Shown one piece after another: positions 7,330 through 63,240 of a stretch of DNA of 64,000 bases. This DNA comes from Bacillota bacterium (GTDB lineage: Bacteria > Bacillota > Limnochordia > DTU087): assembly GCA_012735435.1 (NCBI GenBank), contig JAAYHH010000011.1, forward strand, positions 14,141-78,140, given 5' to 3'. Position numbers and translations under genes: made by a program. The notes under the pieces were generated by a model. That model was not told the DNA's origin, did no database searches, and was given only the letters and a program-made list of their open reading frames with translations. How positions within the stretch are numbered: position 1 is the first letter of the stretch; every line of letters starts with the position of its first letter.

Positions 7330-7980
7330 CTATAGCTGTCTTCCGATCTTAGCCTTAATCCGGCAAAGGGCATTATCAATAGACTTGGTATGGGTACCCA
7401 GCTCTTCGGCCATCTCTTTGTAAGATAACCCGTTGATGTAAAGCTTGAAAACTCTGTACTCAAAATCACTGAGGACTTCTTTTATGTAGCGCTGAGTATG
7501 CTGAAGCCTTTCCCGATCGATAACCAGCGCTTCTGGATCATCTACCCTGTTGTTGGAGAGCACCTCCATCAGGGTTCGGTCTCCCTCGGCATCATAAATG
7601 GGTTTGTGTAAAGATGTGTACGAGTTAAGGGGGATATGCTTCTGCCTGGTAGTGCCCTTGATGGCACTGATAATATTGCGGGTGATGCACAGCTTGGCGA
7701 AGGACCAGAAAGATGAGGAACCTGGAGTAAAATCACGGATTGCCTTGTACAGCCCGATCATCCCTTCTTGCAAGAGATCATCATCCTCAGCTCCCTGCAA
7801 GAAGTAGGGTCGGGTCCATATGTAGACTAACTTCTGATACTTGTACAACAAGTAATCAACTGCATCTTGACGACCAGCCTGGGCTTGCTTCACGATGTCT
7901 TCATCAGGCAAATCCCGGAAGGCCTTGAACCCATCGAAATGATAGTTGAGCGGCAATGCACTACCCATGGACATGACCAC
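7330..7980 (-). CDS. sigH: RNA polymerase sigma-H (Spo0H)
   Basis: A long colinear match to Bacillus SigH as I recall it: QEGMIGLYKAIRDF...FAKLCITRNIISAIKGTTRQKHIPLNSYTSLHKPIYDAEGDRTLMEVL...KSIDNALCRIKAK. Confidence 0.85.
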   Translation of the reverse strand: MVMSMGSALPLNYHFDGFKAFRDLPDEDIVKQAQAGRQDAVDYLLYKYQKLVYIWTRPYFLQGAEDDDLLQEGMIGLYKAIRDFTPGSSSFWSFAKLCITRNIISAIKGTTRQKHIPLNSYTSLHKPIYDAEGDRTLMEVLSNNRVDDPEALVIDRERLQHTQRYIKEVLSDFEYRVFKLYINGLSYKEMAEELGTHTKSIDNALCRIKAKIGRQL

Positions 7981-8185
7981 TCCTTTGGCTCAAGAAAAAG
8001 AATGCTATGTTATCAATATCTACCAAATTGTACAATTCAACACAAGTACGGCAAATCCTTCAATCCAGCCGGAAAACGAAATATGCCCTTCCCGTCTCGT
8101 TCATCAGAACGCAGAACGGTAAGGGCATGTCACGGACAACTACTCTCTTTGGAGTAACACATATAACTCCAGCTTCGCCTCCTTT

Positions 8186-25235: not shown

Positions 25236-25588
25236 ACCCAGGGGAGGTTACTGGGTCACGCCATGCCTCCTCTCGGGCCTACAGCAGCCGGGTTGGTAAG
25301 TAATCCAGCTGATATTAGCGGTCTATTGGAACCTGGCATTAGCTGCATAACTCTCAACAGTTAAAGGTGGCCCCCTACCTCACCAAAGGCCACTTACCTA
25401 CACTATTTAATTTTACCATGTTGGTGTTACCTGATTGTTACAAGCGTGCTAACTTCTCGTAACGGGGCAGTCGCCACTTCCATTCCATTTGGTTCAGGTT
25501 CCGTAAAATACATTCGCTTCTACCCCATCAAGGACCTGCCAAGATTTCCCCGAAGCAGGACTGGAAAATGGTTAACGGGCAGGCAATA

Positions 25589-25617
25589 TTGACAATTGTG
25601 GCCAGTCATGGTATATT
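25589..25617 (+). promoter_or_regulatory. strong sigma-A promoter with extended -10
   Basis: TTGACA (25589-25594), 17 nt spacer, TGgTATATT (-10 at 25612-25617). Confidence 0.65.
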
Positions 25618-25716
25618 AAAGATGAAAATAACGTGTATACAGGATACATGATGTGTAAGCGTTTGTAGGCGTTCGGATAGATGTCGGCGGGTAGATACTT
25701 TGAAAGGAGTGATCCC

Positions 25717-25887
25717 TTGATAATCTCTGTCGGCAACCGGGAGATTACTATCAAGGTCCGCGAACAGTCAAGACCGGAAATCGCGGAGAGAGTGTACCGT
25801 CAGCTCCTTAGGGAGAGAGAAGTTCAGAAGGATCGGGATGCTGCCTACGCCCGTCTGTTGTTTGGTCAGGGGATTCACTTAAACTAG
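25717..25887 (+). CDS. small hypothetical protein (56 aa)
   Basis: TTG 25717 is preceded by GAAAGGAG plus 7 nt. It is framed by a strong promoter about 100 nt upstream and a strong terminator downstream. Sequence: LIISVGNREITIKVREQSRPEIAERVYRQLLREREVQKDRDAAYARLLFGQGIHLN. Confidence 0.55.
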   Translation: MIISVGNREITIKVREQSRPEIAERVYRQLLREREVQKDRDAAYARLLFGQGIHLN

Positions 25888-25910
25888 ACCACTGCAAGCG
25901 TAACAGTATG

Positions 25911-25974
25911 AAAAAGCAAACTGCGATGCTATACCACTCAAGGTACAAGGCATCGCAGTTTGTTTATTCTTTAT
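25911..25974. terminator. bidirectional rho-independent terminator
   Basis: A 14-bp stem GCAAACTGCGATGC / GCATCGCAGTTTGT (25916-25929 and 25950-25963). It has TTATTCTTTAT on the plus side and AAAAA (U5 in minus sense) on the other. It closes both the small plus-strand gene and the minus-strand SLH gene. Confidence 0.75.
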
Positions 25975-26017
25975 GCAGCAAAAAGATTTCCAAGCTAGGT
26001 ATATGCACTCAGGCTAT

Positions 26018-27574
26018 TTAGTTTACAAACCCGATAATCAACGCCAGTACCGCTGCAATGGTTGCGATATTGGCGGCACTCTTAAGACTCTGATTCTGCT
26101 TCTCAGCATGGGTTCGGTAGCTGTCAAACTCATCCCGCAGCTCCTGCAGCTGCCGCTCCAGCCGCTGTTCCCGCATTAGGGCTGCATTGATCTGGGCAGA
26201 TGATTGTGTAATCACCCGCTCATCAACGGCTGCCAGGGCAGACTCTGTGGCGCTTACCCGCTCCTGCAGTATAGAAACAGCTGCCTGCAGCTCTTCAACG
26301 TAATCCTGCAGATCTGCAAGATCCTTGCTGTCAGCTGCTGCACCCTGCTGCAAGATATTGGTCCTCTTGTCTAAGGCAGCGATCTTCTGAGAAATATTTA
26401 CAAGGTCTGTCTGGACTGCCTCCAAACTCCTAACCAGGTCTTGACGCAGACCGCTGACATCCTTCATCAATTGCCCATCCGCGGCAGCCATAGCTTCTCC
26501 CTGTTTCAAGACTTGATCCTGGAGCGCCTGCACATCTTCGGCAAGTGCAGCCGTCTCCTCAGAGCGGGCAAGTCTTTCCTCCGCTACAGCCTGCTGCAGC
26601 TGTCCAATTTCAGCGGTTAGCTGATCATCCCTCTGGGCGGATTCTTCTTGCCAGCTGCTCAGCTCTTGCTCCATTTGGACAAGCTGCTGGACAACCTCAG
26701 ACAGGCCCTTTTCCACCCGACTGATCTCTTCTGCCAGTTCAGCATCGGCCTCTTGCATGGCGTTCTGCAGTAAGCTTAAAGCCGCATCCCGTTCCGCAAA
26801 GCTGCTCTGGACCTTTACACCCAAAGCCTCCTCCAGCGCTACTAGTGAGTCAGTGTGGAGTGCCAGCATCCGGGTGTGCTCATCTAACCTTGCTTCATTG
26901 GCTTCAACAGCGGCCTCGGTATCGGCCAGGGCTGCTGCCTGTTTGACAAGCTCATCCTCAAGGGCTTGAAGCTTACGGCCCTGGTCAGCAGCCTGCTGCC
27001 TAAGGTCTGCATCAGCAGCTTCGAGGCGCCGGGTGGTATCGGCAACCTGCTGCTGGAGGGCGGCAATTTCCGCCAATATGGCTGCTGCCTGCTCCTGTAT
27101 AGAGGTGCGGATAGCTGCATCTTCCTGCTCCATTGTGTCGATGACCTTAGTCACAGTCTCATCCATTACCTGAACACGACGCTGGGTTTCGGTAACGGAA
27201 GCTGACAGCTCTTCCCTTTGATTATACCACCGTACAAGTTCATCCCTAAACTCGGTAGAAAGTGTCCGGAGCAGTTCCAAATCCTCCTGAGTTACACCCA
27301 GCTGCCCTTTTTCGATGTCCACTAGGAGCCGGCCAACTACTGAAGCCAGCGTATACCTATCGACAGGTCTCTGACCTTGAAAAGTTCCATCGGTATAGAG
27401 AGCAAGATAACCTTCCTGGACTAACTTTTGAACACCCTCATAGGCCCAATGGTCTGCAGGCACATCGCTGATCTGCTGTGCAGTCTGCTGGGCAAAAACA
27501 AGATTCCCCTGACCTACCAACAGCAGCAAAAACAGTAGTACAACTCCTATTCTTCGAATTGTCCTCGACTCCAT
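26018..27574 (-). CDS. SLH-domain, long coiled-coil, C-terminally membrane-anchored protein (Omp-alpha-like architecture)
   Basis: Signal peptide ending LVFAQQ. One SLH motif (DVPADHWAYEGVQKLVQEGYLALYTDGTFQGQRPVDRYTLA). About 390 aa of Ala/Gln/Glu/Leu-rich heptad-like sequence. Terminal hydrophobic tail IATIAAVLALIIGFVN. Confidence 0.75.
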   Translation of the reverse strand: MESRTIRRIGVVLLFLLLLVGQGNLVFAQQTAQQISDVPADHWAYEGVQKLVQEGYLALYTDGTFQGQRPVDRYTLASVVGRLLVDIEKGQLGVTQEDLELLRTLSTEFRDELVRWYNQREELSASVTETQRRVQVMDETVTKVIDTMEQEDAAIRTSIQEQAAAILAEIAALQQQVADTTRRLEAADADLRQQAADQGRKLQALEDELVKQAAALADTEAAVEANEARLDEHTRMLALHTDSLVALEEALGVKVQSSFAERDAALSLLQNAMQEADAELAEEISRVEKGLSEVVQQLVQMEQELSSWQEESAQRDDQLTAEIGQLQQAVAEERLARSEETAALAEDVQALQDQVLKQGEAMAAADGQLMKDVSGLRQDLVRSLEAVQTDLVNISQKIAALDKRTNILQQGAAADSKDLADLQDYVEELQAAVSILQERVSATESALAAVDERVITQSSAQINAALMREQRLERQLQELRDEFDSYRTHAEKQNQSLKSAANIATIAAVLALIIGFVN

Positions 27575-27630: not shown

Positions 27631-29664
27631 TTACCTGGCAACAGTAACCGGCAGTTCCATGGGTCCCAATTCGATCACCTGTCCACTGGTGGTGGTCAGC
27701 TTGGTACCCAGCAGCTGGATGACACCGGTGCCTTCAGCGCCTGCCACAAACCGGATTGAACACAGGTTACCTGTCAATCGACTGGGTCCCAGCTGTGAAA
27801 GCCCCCGGAGTTTCACCTGGATAATGCCCTGTGACGGCTGCAGCTCCACCTCCATCGGAGCGGCATCTCCCACGGCAGCCGATAGAGGTGCCAGGACCTC
27901 GCCCCGCTCTACTCCAAGGCGGCCGCCGGCTACCCGCATCAGGTCCACTGGAAACTTAAGCAAGAACTCTGCCTCTTCGATGTTCTTCAGATTATAGCCC
28001 CTTATGGCCGTCTTCATAGGCCCTCCCACAACAGCGGGGCCTGTCCCCTCTGCGATGAGTCTGATCATTTGGGGAAGCTGCGGTATGCTGATAAATTCAT
28101 TTACAATCAGCGGTTCGGTGGCACCGGACTCCACCCTCACCGAATAGGGCAGGCTGTCACTGGCCACATCGGTTGGGGTTAAGAACCACTGAACCACAAT
28201 GGACTCCTGTGGACCGAGATCTCCGCAGAGTTTAGTCCGCCCCTCACCAGGGGCCAGCTGAAGCCCCAAGGGTGCCTGCCATTGGGCATGAACCCACGGT
28301 GCATTCATTTCACCGACATTGGTGATGGTGGCCCTAACGGCAAAGGGTACCGGCTGCAGACTTCCATCTTCAACTAAGAGACGGGGCGGTGCGGAGATTT
28401 TCACCTGCAGTTCGGCAGGTTTGGCGATCCTAACTTGCCGCCGCACCCGGTTGGGCTCACTGTTGGCAGCTTCAACCTTTACTTCGTAGCTGATTTCACC
28501 TCTAATATGGTCAGCCACTTCCACTTGCCAGGCCAGCTGTACTGACTCTCCCACTTCCAAATTACCCAGGCTGCCGCCGGCCTCCTGTCCAGGAACCAGG
28601 GACAAGCCGCTGGGCAGTTCAATGGCTATCCTAACATCCCTAGCCTCACCTTCGCCGCTGTTCTCCAGATAGGCGACAATCGGGAACCTTGTCGGTCCGT
28701 CGGGGGCGTGGGAGACTACAGCAGGTGATGTGACTCCCAAGGAAAGCTTTCCGGGAGCAATGGTTATACCGCCAAGCCCGTAGTAAGTTACCCAAGTAAC
28801 GCTCTCGCCGGGACCGAGGGTGACCGGATCCCAAAACATAGCAATCGCCGAATCCAGCTCAAATTCACCCTTCCGGAGGAAAATGCGGCCAGGGTCAAAA
28901 TCAAAATCCCAGATGCTCTCTGCCAAAGCTCCCCAGTTGCTGAAGTACACCCGATCAGGCGGGGTTACCCCTGAACCCCGCAGGGTTCCCTGGGACATAA
29001 CCTGGGGATCGGCCAGGGAGTCGAATGCCTGCCAAAACTCCGGTATAGCTCCTCCGGTAAACAATGTATCGGTAGTAACAGCCTGCTGCTCTACCCTAAA
29101 GGGGGCACCGTCATTGGCGCCCAACATAGTATCCAGCATAAGCCGCATGGCTACGCTGTGGGAAACAGAATCCTCATTGGTCAAAGTATAGGCAATCCGG
29201 GCTGTATCTTGCAGACCAGTGGTGCTGCTTCGGGTAAAGCTGAGGATCTGCTCCGCTTTCACCGGCCCTAGTTTATATACAGTGCTGATGGCATTTCCCT
29301 GGATAACTTCGGGTCCTGAGATCAGCTCCCCGAATGGTCCTTGTCTTCCAGCGGAGGTCTGTGTCGGACCGCCAAATACATAGTTGCGACCGTCTATTTG
29401 GATCGTGGTGTAAGAAGTCCAAGGATCGGCCATGCCGTAAACTAAGGGTTTGTTTTCATCACCGATCCGGTCAGGATCTCCGCCGGTGGTGTTGATGGAG
29501 AACCGGCCGGTGTTTTCTTCGCCTCCGTTGACAATGATGGAAATGTATTCATTGGCGACAATGATATTGCTGCCGACGTTACCTTCGACCATAGCCCGGG
29601 CCTTCTCTACTTCACAGCTAATCAACATGACCGCAGCCAGGGCAATTGCCAACCAGCGCCGCAT
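27631..29664 (-). CDS. exported (possibly lipidated) 677-aa multidomain protein
   Basis: Signal MRRWLAIALAAVMLISC (lipobox-like LISC), or an AxA site KARA/M. It has an unrecognised ~300-aa N-domain. Two Ig/CARDB-like modules follow (IVAYLENSGEGEARDVRIAIELPSGL; VRATITNVGEMNAPWV). The C-terminal beta-sandwich resembles a cohesin (AEFLLKFPVDLMRV...GNLCSIRFVAGAEGTGVIQL). Confidence 0.7.
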   Translation of the reverse strand: MRRWLAIALAAVMLISCEVEKARAMVEGNVGSNIIVANEYISIIVNGGEENTGRFSINTTGGDPDRIGDENKPLVYGMADPWTSYTTIQIDGRNYVFGGPTQTSAGRQGPFGELISGPEVIQGNAISTVYKLGPVKAEQILSFTRSSTTGLQDTARIAYTLTNEDSVSHSVAMRLMLDTMLGANDGAPFRVEQQAVTTDTLFTGGAIPEFWQAFDSLADPQVMSQGTLRGSGVTPPDRVYFSNWGALAESIWDFDFDPGRIFLRKGEFELDSAIAMFWDPVTLGPGESVTWVTYYGLGGITIAPGKLSLGVTSPAVVSHAPDGPTRFPIVAYLENSGEGEARDVRIAIELPSGLSLVPGQEAGGSLGNLEVGESVQLAWQVEVADHIRGEISYEVKVEAANSEPNRVRRQVRIAKPAELQVKISAPPRLLVEDGSLQPVPFAVRATITNVGEMNAPWVHAQWQAPLGLQLAPGEGRTKLCGDLGPQESIVVQWFLTPTDVASDSLPYSVRVESGATEPLIVNEFISIPQLPQMIRLIAEGTGPAVVGGPMKTAIRGYNLKNIEEAEFLLKFPVDLMRVAGGRLGVERGEVLAPLSAAVGDAAPMEVELQPSQGIIQVKLRGLSQLGPSRLTGNLCSIRFVAGAEGTGVIQLLGTKLTTTSGQVIELGPMELPVTVAR

Positions 29665-29720: not shown

Positions 29721-30647
29721 CTACTCGTTCCGGACATACCTGACACCATCGTAAAGAATCGATACCCTAAACTCCGGCGGACCGCTGAAGGAGACAGTTA
29801 CCGTCAGAATATAATCCTCCAGCAGCGGCTCCATTCGCCATCCGTTCTGGATAGTTAAGCTTGCTACCTGGTCTAGGCTTGCTGCCCCGGAAGACTGGAT
29901 GATGTCAATCCGGGTTGCTCTAGTAGACCCCTTGGGGACATAGGCATCCAGCTTCACAGTGCCTGCCAAGCCCTCGTTAATTGCATTCTTGGGGTACTGA
30001 ATCCGGCCACCGCCTGCTACCAGAGTGCTTGCCGCCGGCAGTGGAGGCAGTGGCGGTGGCGAAGGTGGTGTCGGTTCTGCCTCTTCATCGCTTTCTGTCT
30101 CGGATGAAGAACCGCCTGGTTCGCCGGCAGGGGCAGAATCGCCTCCAGCCATGACAGCATCTTGACCTTGCTCGCTGGTCAGGATTTGCTCCCCATTGCT
30201 GTCAGGCTGCGATAGAGCCTCTTCACTGGCTGCCGGATCCGGCTCAGGTTCAGGCTCAGGCACTACCCTGGTGTCAGGAGTCTTAACTTCCTCTTGGGGA
30301 GCCGGGGTCGTCTCCTGCGGCTTTGGTGCTGGCTCCGGTTCAGTCTTGGTTACCTCGGCCTTGGCAGTTTCAACCGGTTCCGGTTCTTCCTTCGGTGGCG
30401 TGGGTTCCTGACGACGGGGAGTTTGCTGCTGCGGCTGCTGCCTGACCGCTTGGGTTCTAGGCGCTGGCTGCTGGACCTCTACGGGTACAACAGAAATAAT
30501 ACCGCCGCCAGGACCTGCAAAAAGGCCGGGTCCAACCGCAAATTCCCAGCGGGGAAAGACAAAGAACAGCATTGCGTGAAGGATAAGCGAAATCAAGACA
30601 AAGGCTCCAAAGGAGCGGTCTGACTCATCTCCTGTATACATTGCCAC
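29721..30647 (-). CDS. TonB/TolA-type energy-transducing protein
   Basis: N-terminal TM with the SxxxH motif (FVLISLILHAMLFF). About 150 aa of Pro/Glu/Lys/Thr-rich spacer (EPEPEPDP, PPSPPPLPPLP). TonB_C-like end YPKNAINEGLAGTVKLDAYV...IIQSSGAASLDQVA. Confidence 0.75.
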   Translation of the reverse strand: MAMYTGDESDRSFGAFVLISLILHAMLFFVFPRWEFAVGPGLFAGPGGGIISVVPVEVQQPAPRTQAVRQQPQQQTPRRQEPTPPKEEPEPVETAKAEVTKTEPEPAPKPQETTPAPQEEVKTPDTRVVPEPEPEPDPAASEEALSQPDSNGEQILTSEQGQDAVMAGGDSAPAGEPGGSSSETESDEEAEPTPPSPPPLPPLPAASTLVAGGGRIQYPKNAINEGLAGTVKLDAYVPKGSTRATRIDIIQSSGAASLDQVASLTIQNGWRMEPLLEDYILTVTVSFSGPPEFRVSILYDGVRYVRNE

Positions 30648-30691: not shown

Positions 30692-31105
30692 CTACCTGCC
30701 CCGGGGTTCAACTGCAAGGCCAAAGCGATATCCTCCCAGCTGCCGAACAACATCCATTACTTGAACTATATAATCATAGCGAGCCTCCCGGTCAGCTTTA
30801 ATGACGACAAAAAGGTCCGGCCTTTTCTCCAATGCTTTGCCGACCTCTGACCTTAGAGTATTACTACTGACCTGACGCTCACCCAAGAACATCCGTCCAT
30901 CTTTAGCTACAGAAATGGTGATCTGGCTGCTGGCTTGTCTGTCCCAACTTGCCGCCTTGGGCAGTTCAAGATTCAATCCTGCTGGATGGGTCTTAAAGGT
31001 CGTAGCCAGCATGAAGAACACCAAAACAGAAAAAATAATATCAACCAGCGGCACTATTTGAATCGTTGGCTTTTTGTTGCGGACAGAGCGGCGGGCTATC
31101 ATCAC
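30692..31105 (-). CDS. exbD: ExbD/TolR family proton-channel subunit
   Basis: A 137-aa protein. Its single TM carries the conserved Asp (IVPLVDIIFSVLVFFM), followed by a periplasmic domain (VVIKADREARYDYIVQVMD). It overlaps exbB by 4 nt. Confidence 0.85.
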   Translation of the reverse strand: MMIARRSVRNKKPTIQIVPLVDIIFSVLVFFMLATTFKTHPAGLNLELPKAASWDRQASSQITISVAKDGRMFLGERQVSSNTLRSEVGKALEKRPDLFVVIKADREARYDYIVQVMDVVRQLGGYRFGLAVEPRGR

Positions 31106-31716
31106 ACATCACCCCTCGCCTCAAAGATGGCCAACAGCTCCGAAGAGCGTTTGTTGATATCAACCACTAGGCGGTCGATTAATCCCGAAAGGTAAGAATA
31201 AATCAGAGTACCCGGAATGGCGATTACTAAGCCGGTTGCAGTTGTAATTAGGGCTTCTGCAATTCCTGTGCTTAAGGCAAGGGTATCATCTAAGCCGCCA
31301 ACCGCTGAAATCACTTGAAAACTATTGATAATACCTGTTACTGTACCTAAGAGACCAAGCAACGGTGCAGCGGTGATGATTGCATCGAGAAGTCCCAGCC
31401 GGCGTTCCATACGGAAGACCTCTTCATAGGCCACTTCTTCCAAGCGCTCTCGGATAAACTGCTTGTCCTTATCATAATGGGCTATCCCCGCCGCCAGTAC
31501 AGCCGCAACCGGGCCTCTGGTTTTCTTTGCTATCTGGATAGCTTCCAGGATTTTGCCTTGCTGAAGAGCCAGTTTAATGTCATCCATCAAATCCTCTGTA
31601 TCTACTCGACAGCGAAGCAAGTAGACCAGCCTTTCGAGAGAGACAGCTACCATCAATACAGAGCAAAGCAGCAACGGGATCATTACCGGGCCGCCCCGAA
31701 TGATCAAATCCAGCAT
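31102..31716 (-). CDS. exbB: MotA/TolQ/ExbB family proton-channel subunit
   Basis: Three TM spans and the conserved C-terminal half AAPLLGLLGTVTGIINSF...GIAEALITTATGLVIAIP. ATG 31716 follows GGAGG plus 8 nt; the track ORF starts at 31743. Confidence 0.85.
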   Translation of the reverse strand: MLDLIIRGGPVMIPLLLCSVLMVAVSLERLVYLLRCRVDTEDLMDDIKLALQQGKILEAIQIAKKTRGPVAAVLAAGIAHYDKDKQFIRERLEEVAYEEVFRMERRLGLLDAIITAAPLLGLLGTVTGIINSFQVISAVGGLDDTLALSTGIAEALITTATGLVIAIPGTLIYSYLSGLIDRLVVDINKRSSELLAIFEARGDV

Positions 31717-31756
31717 TCTATATACCTCCACTCCGTCCCACATTCATTGGGTAAGA

Positions 31757-31783
31757 CTATTCGACAATCAGGTACCATATCCT
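31757..31783 (-). promoter_or_regulatory. candidate sigma-H type promoter for the exbB operon
   Basis: Minus strand GAAGGATAT (-35, RNAGGAWWW), then 14 nt, then GTCGAATAG (-10, RNNGAATWW). The AGGA-to-GAAT distance of 21 nt matches my recollection of the spoVG promoter. The -10 overlaps Spo0A box 1. Confidence 0.35.
31760..31766 (-). promoter_or_regulatory. Spo0A-box heptamer 1
   Basis: Minus strand TGTCGAA, a perfect 0A-box core, in the context TTGTCGAATA. Confidence 0.4.
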
Positions 31784-31865
31784 TCCTGGCTATTCCCTTG
31801 AGAAACTCCCACGAGAATTTCCTCTAAAGGCCTACGTGCTTCCCTGATTTTCCCCTCTTGGCATT

Positions 31866-31872
31866 TTCGACA
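31866..31872 (-). promoter_or_regulatory. Spo0A-box heptamer 2
   Basis: Minus strand TGTCGAA in the context TTGTCGAAAA. It has the same orientation as box 1 and lies 106 bp upstream of it. Confidence 0.4.
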
Positions 31873-31931
31873 AGGCAAGAGACAACTCCTGCCGTCAAAA
31901 GTCCATCTGAAACAAAGAAAGACGTGGATAT

Positions 31932-31960
31932 GAATAGGGAAATGTCCCCAGGATATGCTA
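31932..31960 (+). promoter_or_regulatory. candidate forespore (sigma-G/F type) promoter for the SASP gene
   Basis: GAATA (GHATR), 17 nt spacer, TATGCTA (consensus CATXHTA, first base mismatched). It lies about 30 nt before the start codon. Confidence 0.35.
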
Positions 31961-31985: not shown

Positions 31986-32213
31986 ATGGGATCTATAATG
32001 GATAGGGAATTAGAAGCAGTTCGGGATCGAGCCATGGACCAGCTCAAGCATGATTTAATAAAAGAGATGGGCTTGTGGGACCTAGTGCAGACCGAAGGCT
32101 GGGGAGCACTGCCGGCCAAGGACTGCGGCCGTATCGGTGGGAAGATGGCAACGAGGCTCAGCCCCAACATCCTCCGGAAAATAGCTGACATGAGCCAAAC
32201 ACAGGGCAAGTAG
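31986..32213 (+). CDS. alpha/beta-type small acid-soluble spore protein
   Basis: LKHDLIKEMGL...ALPAKDCGRIGGKMATRL follows the two conserved SASP blocks (LKxExAxExG and TxxxxGxVGGxxxKRL). The start could be ATG 31986 or ATG 31998. Confidence 0.75.
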   Translation: MGSIMDRELEAVRDRAMDQLKHDLIKEMGLWDLVQTEGWGALPAKDCGRIGGKMATRLSPNILRKIADMSQTQGK

Positions 32214-34649: not shown

Positions 34650-34676
34650 ATTTTCACGCACATCTGATAAATTCCT
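34650..34676 (-). promoter_or_regulatory. weak candidate sigma-H promoter for spoIIAA-AB-sigF
   Basis: Minus strand GCAGGAATTT, then 13 nt, then GAAAAT. This resembles the RNAGGAWWW / GAAT pair, but the -10 is imperfect. Confidence 0.3.
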
Positions 34677-34721
34677 GCTAGACAGCTAAACCGTTGCTGC
34701 AAGTCGCAGCAAGCAGTCCAG

Positions 34722-62187: not shown

Positions 62188-63240
62188 TCAAAGAATACTC
62201 AACCGGGCCAGGTCCTTATAGGTGGCAAAAAGCATTAACAAGAGCAGGAAAGCCAAGCCGATAAACTGTACCAGGCCCTTCTGCTCAGGCTCCAAGGGAC
62301 GGCCCCTCACTGCCTCCCAAAGGAGCATCACCAGCCAGCCGCCGTCTAAGACCGGAATGGGCAGGAAGTTGAATAATCCCAAGTTGATGCTGAGCACCGC
62401 TGCTATGAACAAAACAAACATTATGCCCCGGTTGGCAGATTCGCCCACTATCTGGAAAATTCCTATGGGACCGGCAATATCCGGTTCGATCCTTCCGGTG
62501 ATCATCCGCACAATGGAGATCACAATATCCCTGGATACGAAATAGGTTTGCCTAAGGCCGGTATAGAGTGACTCTCCCAGGGACTGCCTCGGTTTTTCCA
62601 CCATCCCCACGCCCAGCCGAGCCCGGTTAAGTTCCGGGTCTAGTTGCGGCGTAATTGTCAGATGCAGCGTTCTATCTTCCCTGACAATTGTAATGGGAAT
62701 CTCTTCATCGGGGTAGCGGGCAACTATTCTGTTGATTTCCCCGATGGAGGTGATTTTCTCTCCAGCTACCTCGGTAACCACATCACCGGGGAGCAGCCCA
62801 ATCTGGGCAGCCGGCGAACCAGGCTCAACTATTTGTACTGTTGGGGGGATGAAGACCAACCCCATGTACAGTGCAAAAAGGAGGACAGCCAGGATAAAGT
62901 TCATGATGGGTCCTGCAGCTATCACCGCCAGCCGCTGCCAAAGGCTCTTTTGATTGAAGCTTCCCTCATCTTCATCGGGGATTATCTCATCTTCATCCTC
63001 GGGGATATCCATACCCGCCAGCTTAACAAATCCGCCGAAGGGCAGGATCCGCAGACTGTAAACGGTATCTTGTCTTCGCCGCTTCCACACAGCAGGGCCA
63101 AAGCCCAGGGCAAATTCATAGACCTTTACTCCCACAGCCTTAGCAGCAAGAAAGTGTCCCAACTCATGGACAAATATCGTCGGACCCAAAACAAGCACAA
63201 AGGCTAAGAGCAGATTCAAGGCAACCATCCTTTCTGCCAA
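62188..63240 (-). CDS. rseP: RIP site-2 metalloprotease RseP/RasP
   Basis: HELGHF zinc motif, a central PDZ (GLLPGDVVTEVAGEKI) and NFLPIPVLDGG. Confidence 0.9.
   Translation of the reverse strand: MAERMVALNLLLAFVLVLGPTIFVHELGHFLAAKAVGVKVYEFALGFGPAVWKRRRQDTVYSLRILPFGGFVKLAGMDIPEDEDEIIPDEDEGSFNQKSLWQRLAVIAAGPIMNFILAVLLFALYMGLVFIPPTVQIVEPGSPAAQIGLLPGDVVTEVAGEKITSIGEINRIVARYPDEEIPITIVREDRTLHLTITPQLDPELNRARLGVGMVEKPRQSLGESLYTGLRQTYFVSRDIVISIVRMITGRIEPDIAGPIGIFQIVGESANRGIMFVLFIAAVLSINLGLFNFLPIPVLDGGWLVMLLWEAVRGRPLEPEQKGLVQFIGLAFLLLLMLFATYKDLARLSIL

What the first reader, a model, noticed from the sequence alone, without database searches (positions are those of the whole stretch)
31757..31872. Two perfect Spo0A-box heptamers and a sigma-H-like promoter upstream of the exbB operon
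Seen: the minus strand carries TGTCGAA twice in the same orientation (31766-31760 and 31872-31866, 106 bp apart). Both are in T/A-flanked contexts (TTGTCGAATA, TTGTCGAAAA) within a ~270-bp intergenic region. A given 7-mer is expected about 0.03 times in that space on two strands, so two copies are unlikely by chance. Overlapping the proximal box is GAAGGATAT-N14-GTCGAATAG, which fits the sigma-H -35/-10 pattern with the canonical spacing. It lies about 35-45 nt before the exbB start. The window itself encodes sigH, and sporulation genes (SASP, spoIIA operon) are the immediate neighbours. Inference: the Ton/Tol-like operon may be switched at the onset of sporulation.
Basis: partly seen in the sequence, partly recalled or inferred. 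Interest (0 to 1): 0.5.

Follow-up and report, generated by a model that had tools for sequence, protein, structure and literature searches.

The report
Tandem sigma-H promoters before a Ton/Tol operon
The two "Spo0A boxes" are most likely the -10 elements of two back-to-back sigma-H-type promoters that drive a Ton/Tol-like envelope operon in a spore-forming, two-membraned Firmicute; this is a well-conserved but fairly ordinary kind of promoter.

Summary
TGTCGAA lies on the minus strand at 31766-31760 and 31872-31866, in the region between exbB and a divergent SASP gene.

- P1 is GAAGGATAT-N10-TGTCGAAT.
- P2 is GCAGGAGTT-N11-TGTCGAAA.

P1 is present upstream of exbB in all 28 sequences examined (the window plus 27 related Limnochordia loci, ExbB identity down to 57-58%), while its spacer varies freely. 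P2 is present in all 11 close relatives. In two of them it drives an intact glnQ-like gene, so the window's 106-bp spacing is a deletion remnant.

The window encodes a true SigH. The sigH and spoIIAA genes carry the same promoter type. No sigma-70-type promoter is found upstream of exbB.

In C. difficile, the SigH-assigned promoters of spo0A, lplA and ssuA have the same AGGA-N13/14-TGTCGAA architecture. Spo0A binds fragments carrying those boxes in vitro.

Verdict: these are two tandem sigma-H-type promoters (confidence about 0.8). Spo0A may also bind the heptamers (about 0.3-0.4), but at -10 it would repress rather than activate. This is a new member of a known kind, of modest interest.

The parts
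31777..31785 (-). P1 -35 block GAAGGATAT (core AGGA at 31783-31780)
   Evidence: The sequence is read directly. A match to AGGA-N13-[T/C]GTCGAA was found at the same position in all 26 sequences, where 23 are unique. It was also found in L032 and L033. Because the sites were selected with that pattern, the evidence is that a match exists everywhere at the same place.
31759..31766 (-). P1 -10 block TGTCGAAT, the proximal '0A box' (31766-31760) plus T
   Evidence: Searches give the sequence. The heptamer is TGTCGAA in 26 of 28 sequences and CGTCGAA in 2. AGGA-N17-GAA is the sigma-H spacing reported in PMC12456013 and found in the PMC7438776 table.
31750..31753 (-). Predicted P1 transcription start, about 7-9 nt after GAAT, giving a 5' UTR of about 35 nt
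   Evidence: This is inferred from where the promoter sequences end in the C. difficile SigH table, which I take to mark the mapped starts. It is not measured here.
31884..31892 (-). P2 -35 block GCAGGAGTT
   Evidence: GCAGGA is invariant in the alignment of the window with L001-L004 and L006. The block is also present in L005, L008, L009 and L024.
31865..31872 (-). P2 -10 block TGTCGAAA, the distal '0A box' (31872-31866) plus A
   Evidence: AGGA-N14-TGTCGAA has the same spacing as the C. difficile spo0A SigH promoter.
31790..31864 (-). P2-P1 interval, a remnant of a glnQ-like ABC ATPase gene (5' UTR and 3' end)
   Evidence: The interval aligns to the 5' UTR and to the last codons of the intact gene in L005 (5178-5921) and L009. 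The leader fold is not unusual, z = -0.98.
31102..31716 (-). exbB/tolQ-like gene (MotA/TolQ/ExbB proton channel), RBS GGAGG at 31729-31725
   Evidence: Pfam PF01618, E = 1.7e-32. NCBIfam TolQ and ExbB models hit below their equivalog cut-offs. Homologues are 204 aa.
30692..31105 (-). exbD/tolR-like gene
   Evidence: Pfam PF02472, E = 3e-28.
29721..30647 (-). TonB-like gene: N-terminal anchor, Pro/Glu-rich linker, TonB_C domain
   Evidence: Pfam PF03544, E = 5e-9. Weak TolA and tonB_Cterm hits appear.
27631..29664 (-). 677-aa secreted protein of unknown function with a NEW3/DUF11-like domain
   Evidence: It is conserved downstream of tonB in every locus long enough to show it.
26018..27574 (-). 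SLH-domain protein with a long coiled coil and a hydrophobic C-terminal tail; last gene of the operon
   Evidence: Pfam SLH and NF033921 N-terminal similarity. It is conserved in the loci. A hairpin at 25918-25962 follows the gene.
31932..31960 (+). Divergent sigma-G-like promoter of the SASP gene (GAATA-N17-TATGCTA), back to back with P2
   Evidence: The sequence is and is conserved. The consensus is from memory (GHATR-N17-18-CATXHTA). SASP Pfam PF00269.
8035..8061 (-). Internal control: sigma-H-type promoter upstream of sigH itself (GAAGGATTT-N11-GTTGAAT)
   Evidence: The same promoter type is conserved upstream of sigH in L026/L027, L030 and Limnochorda pilosa L031.
34652..34678 (-). Internal control: sigma-H-type promoter upstream of spoIIAA (GCAGGAATT...CGTGAAA)
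   Evidence: The same promoter type is seen upstream of spoIIAA in the window and 17 related loci, never with TGTCGAA.
7330..7980 (-). sigH gene
   Evidence: NCBIfam NF006148 scores 260 bits against a cut-off of 208. Homologues are named SigH in Limnochordia.

Best explanation
The 280-bp region upstream of exbB carries two tandem promoters of the sigma-H (Spo0H) type. Both read into the five-gene operon exbB-exbD-tonB-p677-SLH.

- P1: -35 GAAGGATAT at 31785-31777, and -10 TGTCGAAT at 31766-31759.
- P2: -35 GCAGGAGTT at 31892-31884, and -10 TGTCGAAA at 31872-31865.

The two 'Spo0A boxes' are the -10 elements of these promoters. TGTCGAA is a consensus-grade sigma-H -10 (T-R-T-A/C-GAA).

P2 was ancestrally the promoter of a glnQ-like gene that was deleted in this lineage. 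That deletion left the two promoters 106 bp apart.

The expected behaviour is that RNA polymerase with SigH starts about 8 nt after each GAA(T/A). The operon is then induced when SigH becomes active, at the transition to stationary phase or early sporulation.

Shown here: the motifs, their spacing, their conservation, the presence of sigH, and the matching control promoters. Inferred: the identity of the sigma factor, the transcription start sites and the timing.

Spo0A~P may additionally bind the same heptamers (my estimate 0.3-0.4). If it does, it would occlude the -10 and shut the promoters off.
For: 1. Two-block architecture. AGGA-N13/14-TGTCGAA occurs twice in the window against 0.11 expected.

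2. Conservation of P1. It is found about 45-90 nt before the exbB start in all 25 related loci. It is also found in loci of the Ca. Darwinibacter and Ca. Wallacebacter ExbB clusters. ExbB identity runs down to 57-58%. The -35 and -10 blocks are fixed while most spacer positions carry little information.

3. Specificity. In 201 kb of related loci the strict motif occurs only upstream of exbB or of glnQ-exbB.

4. P2 keeps its own invariant GCAGGA and TGTCGAA blocks. In L005 and L009 it sits about 45 nt before an intact glnQ-like gene.

5. SigH is encoded in the window and passes equivalog cut-offs.

6. Control promoters. The same promoter type lies upstream of sigH and of spoIIAA in the window and 17 related loci.

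7. No sigma-70-type promoter is found on the exbB strand of the intergenic region.

8. External calibration.
- The SigH motif AGGA-N17-18-GAAT was found at mapped transcription starts in the diderm Firmicute Sporomusa (PMC12456013).
- The C. difficile SigH promoter table (PMC7438776) includes spo0A, ssuA and lplA with AGGA-N13/14-TGTCGAA.
- Across 31 aligned promoters from that table, the bases before GAA are T 71%, R 100%, T 71%, then A or C.
Against: There are no expression data or 5'-end data for this organism. The sigma factor is assigned from motif and context only.

The heptamer is more strictly conserved than other sigma-H-type -10 regions in the same genomes. G2 and C4 never vary. The spoIIAA and sigH promoters show TTGCGAA, CCTCGAA, GCGTGAA, GGGCGAA and TGTTGAA at the equivalent place. 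That pattern hints at an extra constraint, such as Spo0A binding. G2, C4 and G5 are the Spo0A contact bases (PMC3485338).

The invariance figures partly reflect how the sites were selected, by a pattern search.

The sampled loci fall into roughly nine lineages by my grouping of the upstream sequences, so they are not 28 independent observations.
Confidence: 0.8

Rival explanations
1. Composite control. The sites are sigma-H promoters, and the heptamers are also real Spo0A~P operators. High Spo0A~P would occupy the -10 of P1 and P2 and switch the operon off in cells that commit to sporulation. The result would be a pulse of expression at the transition state. This reading extends the best explanation rather than excluding it.
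For: - Both sites are perfect 7/7 0A boxes.
- G2, C4 and G5, the bases Spo0A contacts (PMC3485338), are invariant in 23 unique P1 sequences.
- The equivalent positions vary in the spoIIAA and sigH promoters of related genomes.
- C. difficile Spo0A-DBD binds fragments carrying perfect boxes upstream of spo0A, lplA and ssuA. Those genes' SigH promoters carry TGTCGAA at the -10, very likely the same boxes.
Against: - TGTCGAA already fits the extended sigma-H -10 consensus, so no second factor is needed.
- spo0A is not in the window, and binding has not been tested.
- The flanking A/T bases of the extended 0A consensus are not conserved.
- No 0A box within one mismatch recurs upstream of spoIIAA in the window and related loci.
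Confidence: 0.33
2. The two heptamers are Spo0A activator sites that switch on a single sigma-H (or sigma-A) promoter at the onset of sporulation, in the way 0A boxes work at spoIIA or spoIIG in Bacillus subtilis.
For: Two perfect boxes lie in one intergenic region. Sporulation genes are next door. sigH is present.
Against: - The proximal box is the -10 itself. By general knowledge, activator sites lie upstream of or over the -35.
- The distal box has its own conserved -35 at sigma-H spacing.
- The distal box's distance to P1 is not kept. It is 106, 95 or 82 bp in close relatives and about 825 bp in L005 and L009.
- The distal box is absent from all the more distant loci that keep P1.
Confidence: 0.07
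3. The two-block motif is read by another factor. This could be a different alternative sigma factor (a SigH paralogue or an ECF-like sigma that uses GTC in its -10), or a transcription factor whose site happens to resemble a sigma-H promoter.
For: The -10 is conserved as GTCGAA rather than as GAAT; the base after GAA is T, A or C. GTC is typical of ECF -10 elements (from memory).
Against: - The -35 AGGA(A/T)(A/T) and the AGGA-N17/18-GAA spacing match sigma-H, not the ECF AAC-N16-17-CGT pattern.
- The same architecture precedes sigH and spoIIAA.
- The same architecture marks SigH-assigned C. difficile promoters.
Confidence: 0.08
4. Chance co-occurrence of two 7-mers with no function.
For: TGTCGAA is not rare; there are 8 copies in 64 kb against 4.4 expected.
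Against: P1 is conserved in 28 of 28 sequences and P2 in 11 of 11, with freely varying spacers.
Confidence: 0.01

Closest known systems
Clostridioides difficile SigH-dependent promoters of spo0A (CD1214), ssuA (CD1484) and lplA (CD1654)
   Same: They have the identical two-block architecture: AGGA-N14-TGTCGAAT for spo0A, and AGGA-N13-TGTCGAA for ssuA and lplA (PMC7438776 Table 3). The -10 is a perfect 0A box. Fragments carrying these boxes bind Spo0A-DBD in vitro (PMC3485338).
   Different: Those promoters have mapped starts and expression reduced in a sigH mutant; the ones here are predicted only. The organism (an AT-rich monoderm) and the genes differ. Here the architecture occurs twice in tandem and is conserved across a class-level sample.
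Bacillus subtilis spoIIA and spo0A Ps promoters (sigma-H promoters activated by Spo0A~P)
   Same: They are sigma-H-type promoters in the sporulation-initiation network. The 0A-box core is TGTCGAA.
   Different: In B. subtilis the 0A boxes lie upstream of or over the -35 and activate (general knowledge). Here the boxes are the -10 elements. The spoIIAA promoters of this lineage carry no TGTCGAA and show no recurrent one-mismatch box in the 230 bp upstream.
Broad SigH regulon of the diderm Firmicute Sporomusa sphaeroides
   Same: The motif AGGA-N17-18-GAAT was found at mapped transcription starts. The regulon is enriched for envelope genes and is not restricted to sporulation (PMC12456013).
   Different: No ExbB or TolQ entry was found in the supplementary files held for that paper. 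It is a different class (Negativicutes).
Fur-regulated exbB-exbD-tonB operons of Proteobacteria
   Same: The gene triad is the same: a MotA/ExbB channel, ExbD and a TonB_C protein.
   Different: I saw no Fur-box-like sequence by eye in the exbB upstream region. The promoter type is sigma-H-like, not sigma-70. The operon continues into a 677-aa secreted protein and an SLH coiled-coil protein. ExbB and ExbD score slightly better against TolQ and TolR models and stay below all equivalog cut-offs.

Membership tests
Sigma-H (Spo0H)-dependent promoter | A -35 element of the AGGA type (RNAGGAWWW) | tested here: met
   P1 is GAAGGATAT. P2 is GCAGGAGTT, which departs from W at one position. A match with AGGA is found in all 23 unique P1 sequences.
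Sigma-H (Spo0H)-dependent promoter | A -10 element RNNGAA(T) placed 17-18 nt after AGGA | tested here: met
   P1 is AGGA-N17-GAAT and P2 is AGGA-N18-GAAA. The spacing matches PMC12456013 and 31 aligned C. difficile promoters.
Sigma-H (Spo0H)-dependent promoter | The genome encodes SigH | tested here: met
   Window 7330-7980 (-) scores 260 bits on NF006148 against a cut-off of 208. Homologues are named SigH in Limnochordia.
Sigma-H (Spo0H)-dependent promoter | The same promoter type at genes expected to be SigH-dependent in the same genome | tested here: met
   spoIIAA upstream at 34678-34652, and in 17 related loci. sigH upstream at 8061-8035, and in relatives.
Sigma-H (Spo0H)-dependent promoter | Transcription starts about 7-9 nt after the -10 and depends on sigH | not testable with these tools
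   This needs 5'-end mapping, a sigH mutant or in vitro transcription.
Spo0A binding site (0A box) | The 7-bp core TGTCGAA with G2, C4 and G5 | tested here: met
   Two perfect copies. The core is invariant in P1 apart from T1-to-C in L010 and L011. Contact bases are from PMC3485338.
Spo0A binding site (0A box) | A position from which Spo0A~P can activate (upstream of or overlapping the -35) | tested here: not met
   Both heptamers sit at the -10 of their own promoter. The positional rule itself is general knowledge of B. subtilis promoters.
Spo0A binding site (0A box) | 0A boxes at the classical Spo0A target spoIIA in the same genomes (calibration of the motif) | tested here: not met
   No box within one mismatch recurs in the 230 bp upstream of spoIIAA across the window and 17 loci; only scattered single hits appear in a few loci. 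Weak, degenerate sites would have been missed.
Spo0A binding site (0A box) | The organism encodes Spo0A, and Spo0A~P binds the site | not tested
   spo0A is not in the window. Binding needs EMSA, footprinting or ChIP.
TonB-ExbB-ExbD / TolQRA-type envelope energiser (identity of the operon) | A MotA/TolQ/ExbB channel, an ExbD/TolR protein and a TonB_C/TolA-like protein in one operon | tested here: met
   Pfam PF01618, PF02472 and PF03544. The order is conserved in the related loci.
TonB-ExbB-ExbD / TolQRA-type envelope energiser (identity of the operon) | Assignment to Ton rather than Tol (equivalog scores, partner receptor or Pal) | tested here: inconclusive
   The TolQ, TolR, ExbB and ExbD models all hit below their cut-offs. 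No TonB-dependent receptor or Pal was looked for.

The most novel reading that the evidence does not exclude
The Ton/Tol-like machine (ExbB-ExbD-TonB plus a 677-aa secreted protein and an SLH coiled-coil tether) is a dedicated, SigH- and Spo0A-timed part of the sporulation programme of two-membraned Firmicutes. It might energise outer-membrane or peptidoglycan remodelling at asymmetric division or engulfment.

The promoters' -10 elements would double as Spo0A operators, so the operon fires in a short pulse.

The invariant promoter and the invariant position next to dacF-spoIIAA-spoIIAB-sigF across Limnochordia are compatible with this reading. They do not demonstrate it.
Probability: 0.12. Interest if true: 0.7.

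Novelty: new member of a known kind. Interest (0 to 1): 0.35.

Why it matters
If the promoters work as predicted, an envelope-energising Ton/Tol-like operon belongs to the SigH (transition-state) regulon across a class of two-membraned, spore-forming Firmicutes. These organisms are common in biogas reactors and mostly uncultured. That gives a concrete handle on when the machine is made, and a reason to test it in envelope remodelling.

There is also a methodological point. A perfect "0A box" found by pattern search can simply be a consensus sigma-H -10. This probably also explains the puzzling C. difficile Spo0A "targets" lplA and ssuA. Spo0A-box scans should therefore check for an AGGA block 13-14 nt upstream before calling a site.

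Tried and rejected
- Rfam scan of the whole window: no match.
- Sigma-70-type promoter scan: nothing on the exbB strand of the intergenic region.
- RNA fold of the P2 leader (31858-31700): z = -0.98, not unusual.
- A third near-box, CGTCGAA at 31981-31975 in the SASP leader: not conserved in relatives, so treated as chance.
- 0A boxes within one mismatch upstream of spoIIAA in the window and 17 loci: none recurs across loci. The Spo0A motif of this lineage therefore could not be calibrated.
- Fur-box-like sequence upstream of exbB: none seen by eye.
- Sigma-E, -F, -G and -K consensus sequences (from memory): they do not fit the two conserved blocks.
- ExbB, TolQ or TonB entries in the Sporomusa SigH data: one unrelated TonB-dependent receptor only.
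- The spo0A locus of this lineage could not be reached.
- Literature search for ExbB plus sporulation in diderm Firmicutes: nothing relevant.

Full report
**Observation**

On the minus strand, TGTCGAA lies at 31766-31760 and 31872-31866. Both copies are in the intergenic region between two divergent genes.

- exbB is on the minus strand. Its real start is most likely ATG 31716, preceded by GGAGG at 31729-31725. Homologues are uniformly 204 aa.
- An alpha/beta-type SASP gene is on the plus strand, with a likely start at 31998 (Pfam PF00269).

The heptamer occurs 8 times in the window, against 4.4 expected from shuffles. About 0.03 copies are therefore expected in this region. Two copies are nominally unlikely: about 6e-4 for this region, or about 0.03 after allowing for roughly 60 intergenic regions.

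The sigma-H match is also real. GAAGGATAT (31785-31777) and GTCGAATAG (31765-31757) fit RNAGGAWWW-N11-12-RNNGAAT. That pattern has 3 hits in the window against 0.18 expected. The gap between the two 9-mers as written is 11 nt, not 14.

The distal heptamer is also preceded by an AGGA block at sigma-H spacing. GCAGGAGTT lies at 31892-31884, followed by 11 nt and then TGTCGAAA. The strict pattern AGGA-N13/14-TGTCGAA occurs twice in the window, against 0.11 expected. Both hits are here and both point toward exbB.

**Organism and context**

Pfam identifies the following genes:

- a five-gene set: exbB/tolQ-like, exbD/tolR-like, a TonB_C protein, a 677-aa secreted protein and an SLH coiled-coil protein;
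- a GNAT gene, sigF, spoIIAB, spoIIAA and dacF on the same strand upstream.

The window also encodes SigH at 7330-7980 (-). It scores above the NCBIfam equivalog cut-offs. Its homologues are named SigH in Limnochordia, including Limnochorda pilosa at 82% identity.

ExbB homologues come from biogas MAGs labelled Firmicutes, Bacillota or Limnochordia. They include Ca. Darwinibacter acetoxidans and Ca. Wallacebacter cryptica. Limnochordia are Firmicutes with an outer membrane (PMC11456536), so a Ton/Tol-like system is expected there.

ExbB and ExbD hit the TolQ/TolR models and the ExbB/ExbD models below all equivalog cut-offs. Ton versus Tol therefore stays open.

**Comparative evidence for P1**

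I fetched 25 orthologous loci, with ExbB identity from 57-58% to 98%. I added two more from the named Candidatus clusters.

- In every one, AGGA(A/T)(A/T)n-N10-(T/C)GTCGAA lies about 45-90 nt before the exbB start codon.
- Across 23 unique sequences, most of the spacer between the two blocks carries almost no information. The flanks also diverge.
- Because I located the sites by pattern, the real evidence is that a match exists at the same place in 28 of 28 sequences.
- In 201 kb of these loci, the strict pattern occurs nowhere except upstream of exbB or of glnQ-exbB.

**Comparative evidence for P2**

The distal block pair is present in all 11 close relatives: the window, L001-L006, L008, L009 and L024. 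GCAGGA and TGTCGAA are invariant while the spacer varies.

In L005 and L009, P2 lies about 890 nt upstream of exbB. There it sits about 45 nt before an intact glnQ-like ABC ATPase gene. The window's P2-P1 interval still aligns to that gene's 5' UTR and to its last codons.

So the 106-bp spacing is what a gene deletion left behind. P2 behaves as a promoter in its own right, not as an upstream operator of P1.

**Which factor reads the blocks**

- No sigma-70-type promoter is found on the exbB strand of the intergenic region.
- The same architecture precedes sigH itself: GAAGGATTT-N11-GTTGAAT at 8061-8035. It is also present upstream of sigH in three of the four relative groups sampled, including L. 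pilosa; L028 and L029 gave no match.
- The same architecture precedes spoIIAA in the window and in 17 related loci. spoIIA is the textbook SigH-dependent operon.
- In the diderm Firmicute Sporomusa, mapped transcription starts gave a SigH motif AGGA-N17-18-GAAT (PMC12456013). P1 is N17 and P2 is N18.
- In C. difficile, the table of SigH-assigned promoters includes spo0A (AGGA-N14-TGTCGAAT), and ssuA and lplA (AGGA-N13-TGTCGAA) (PMC7438776).

I aligned 31 promoters from the C. difficile table. The four bases before GAA are T (71%), R (100%), T (71%), and A or C. TGTCGAA is therefore a consensus-grade sigma-H -10. In a genome with more G+C it may simply be the optimum.

**Is Spo0A involved as well?**

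Arguments for:

- The heptamer is more rigidly conserved than the equivalent positions of the spoIIAA and sigH promoters in related genomes. Those show TTGCGAA, CCTCGAA, GCGTGAA, GGGCGAA and TGTTGAA.
- The invariant bases include G2, C4 and G5, which Spo0A contacts (PMC3485338).
- C. difficile Spo0A-DBD shifts fragments with perfect boxes upstream of spo0A, lplA and ssuA. Those are the three genes whose SigH promoters use TGTCGAA as the -10, so they are very likely the same boxes. This last step is my inference.

Arguments against:

- Sigma-H alone can explain the sequence.
- Activator-dependent promoters such as spoIIA are expected to deviate from consensus.
- The spoIIAA upstream regions of the window and related loci show no recurrent 0A box within one mismatch.
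- spo0A is not in the window.

I put Spo0A binding with a regulatory effect at 0.3-0.4. At the -10 it would occlude RNA polymerase.

**Mechanism I commit to**

SigH holoenzyme initiates at about 31752 (P1) and about 31857 (P2). It transcribes exbB, exbD, tonB, the 677-aa gene and the SLH gene, ending at a hairpin at 25918-25962. The operon is therefore induced when SigH becomes active. Confidence that these are sigma-H-type promoters is about 0.8. The start sites and the timing are inferred.

**Wider context**

The order dacF-spoIIAA-spoIIAB-sigF-(x)-GNAT-(SASP)-exbB-exbD-tonB-p677-SLH is kept in every locus long enough to show it. The Ton/Tol-like operon is thus a fixed neighbour of the spoIIA operon in this class.

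That arrangement is compatible with a role linked to sporulation, such as envelope remodelling in a two-membraned spore former. It may also be inherited synteny. I give the strong version a probability of 0.12.

**Novelty and interest**

The element is a new member of a known kind, the sigma-H promoter. Its unusual trait, a -10 identical to the 0A box, already exists in published C. difficile data.

The conserved link to a Ton/Tol-like operon across Limnochordia is new but modest. The practical lesson is that perfect 0A boxes should be checked for an AGGA block 13-14 nt upstream before they are called Spo0A sites. Interest is 0.35.

Noticed in passing
window 31932-31960 (+), with 31937-31949: The SASP gene has a sigma-G-like promoter (GAATA-N17-TATGCTA; consensus from memory). 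Its spacer holds a near-palindrome, GGGAAATGTCCCC, that is conserved in L001-L004. This could be a regulator site.
   Followed up: partly
L012, L013, L017-L023, L025, L032: about 25 nt upstream of the exbB AGGA block: A second conserved two-block motif, ATCCCCCATAAGC-N13-CGAAT(C/G)TTATA, follows the GNAT terminator hairpin. It resembles sigma-I promoters as I remember them, but this is untested. The more distant lineages therefore also have tandem promoters before exbB, with a different upstream one.
   Followed up: no
window 31790-31864 (-); L005 5178-5921; L009: The interval between the two promoters is the remnant of a glnQ-like ABC ATPase gene that is intact in L005 and L009. Both its 5' UTR and its last codons are still recognisable in the window.
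   Followed up: yes
window 8035-8061 (-): sigH has a sigma-H-type promoter of its own (GAAGGATTT-N11-GTTGAAT). It is present upstream of sigH in relatives, including Limnochorda pilosa. This suggests positive autoregulation of sigH in this class.
   Followed up: partly
window 62439-62466 (-): A third full match to the sigma-H consensus (ATAGGAATT...GGGCGAAT) lies inside the rseP coding region, about 370 nt before ispG. It could be an internal promoter or chance.
   Followed up: no
window 25236-26017: This 780-bp gap holds a near-consensus sigma-70 promoter with an extended TG (TTGACA-17-TATATT, 25589-25617, +). It also holds a 68-aa ORF with no Pfam hit (25681-25887, +) and a hairpin at 25918-25962 that could terminate both this ORF and the SLH gene.
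   Followed up: partly
window 26018-27574 (-): The last operon gene encodes a signal peptide, an SLH domain, about 400 aa of coiled coil and a hydrophobic C-terminal tail. Its N-terminus resembles the SLH plus coiled-coil part of SomB/OmpM-type outer-membrane tethers, but no beta-barrel follows.
   Followed up: partly
L001-L025: The gene order dacF-spoIIAA-spoIIAB-sigF-(x)-GNAT-(SASP)-exbB-exbD-tonB-p677-SLH is kept in every locus long enough to show it, down to 57% ExbB identity.
   Followed up: yes
C. difficile literature (PMC3485338 and PMC7438776): The 'non-sporulation' Spo0A targets lplA and ssuA, reported from perfect 0A boxes, carry TGTCGAA at the -10 of SigH-assigned promoters. I found no statement of this overlap in the passages I read.
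   Followed up: partly
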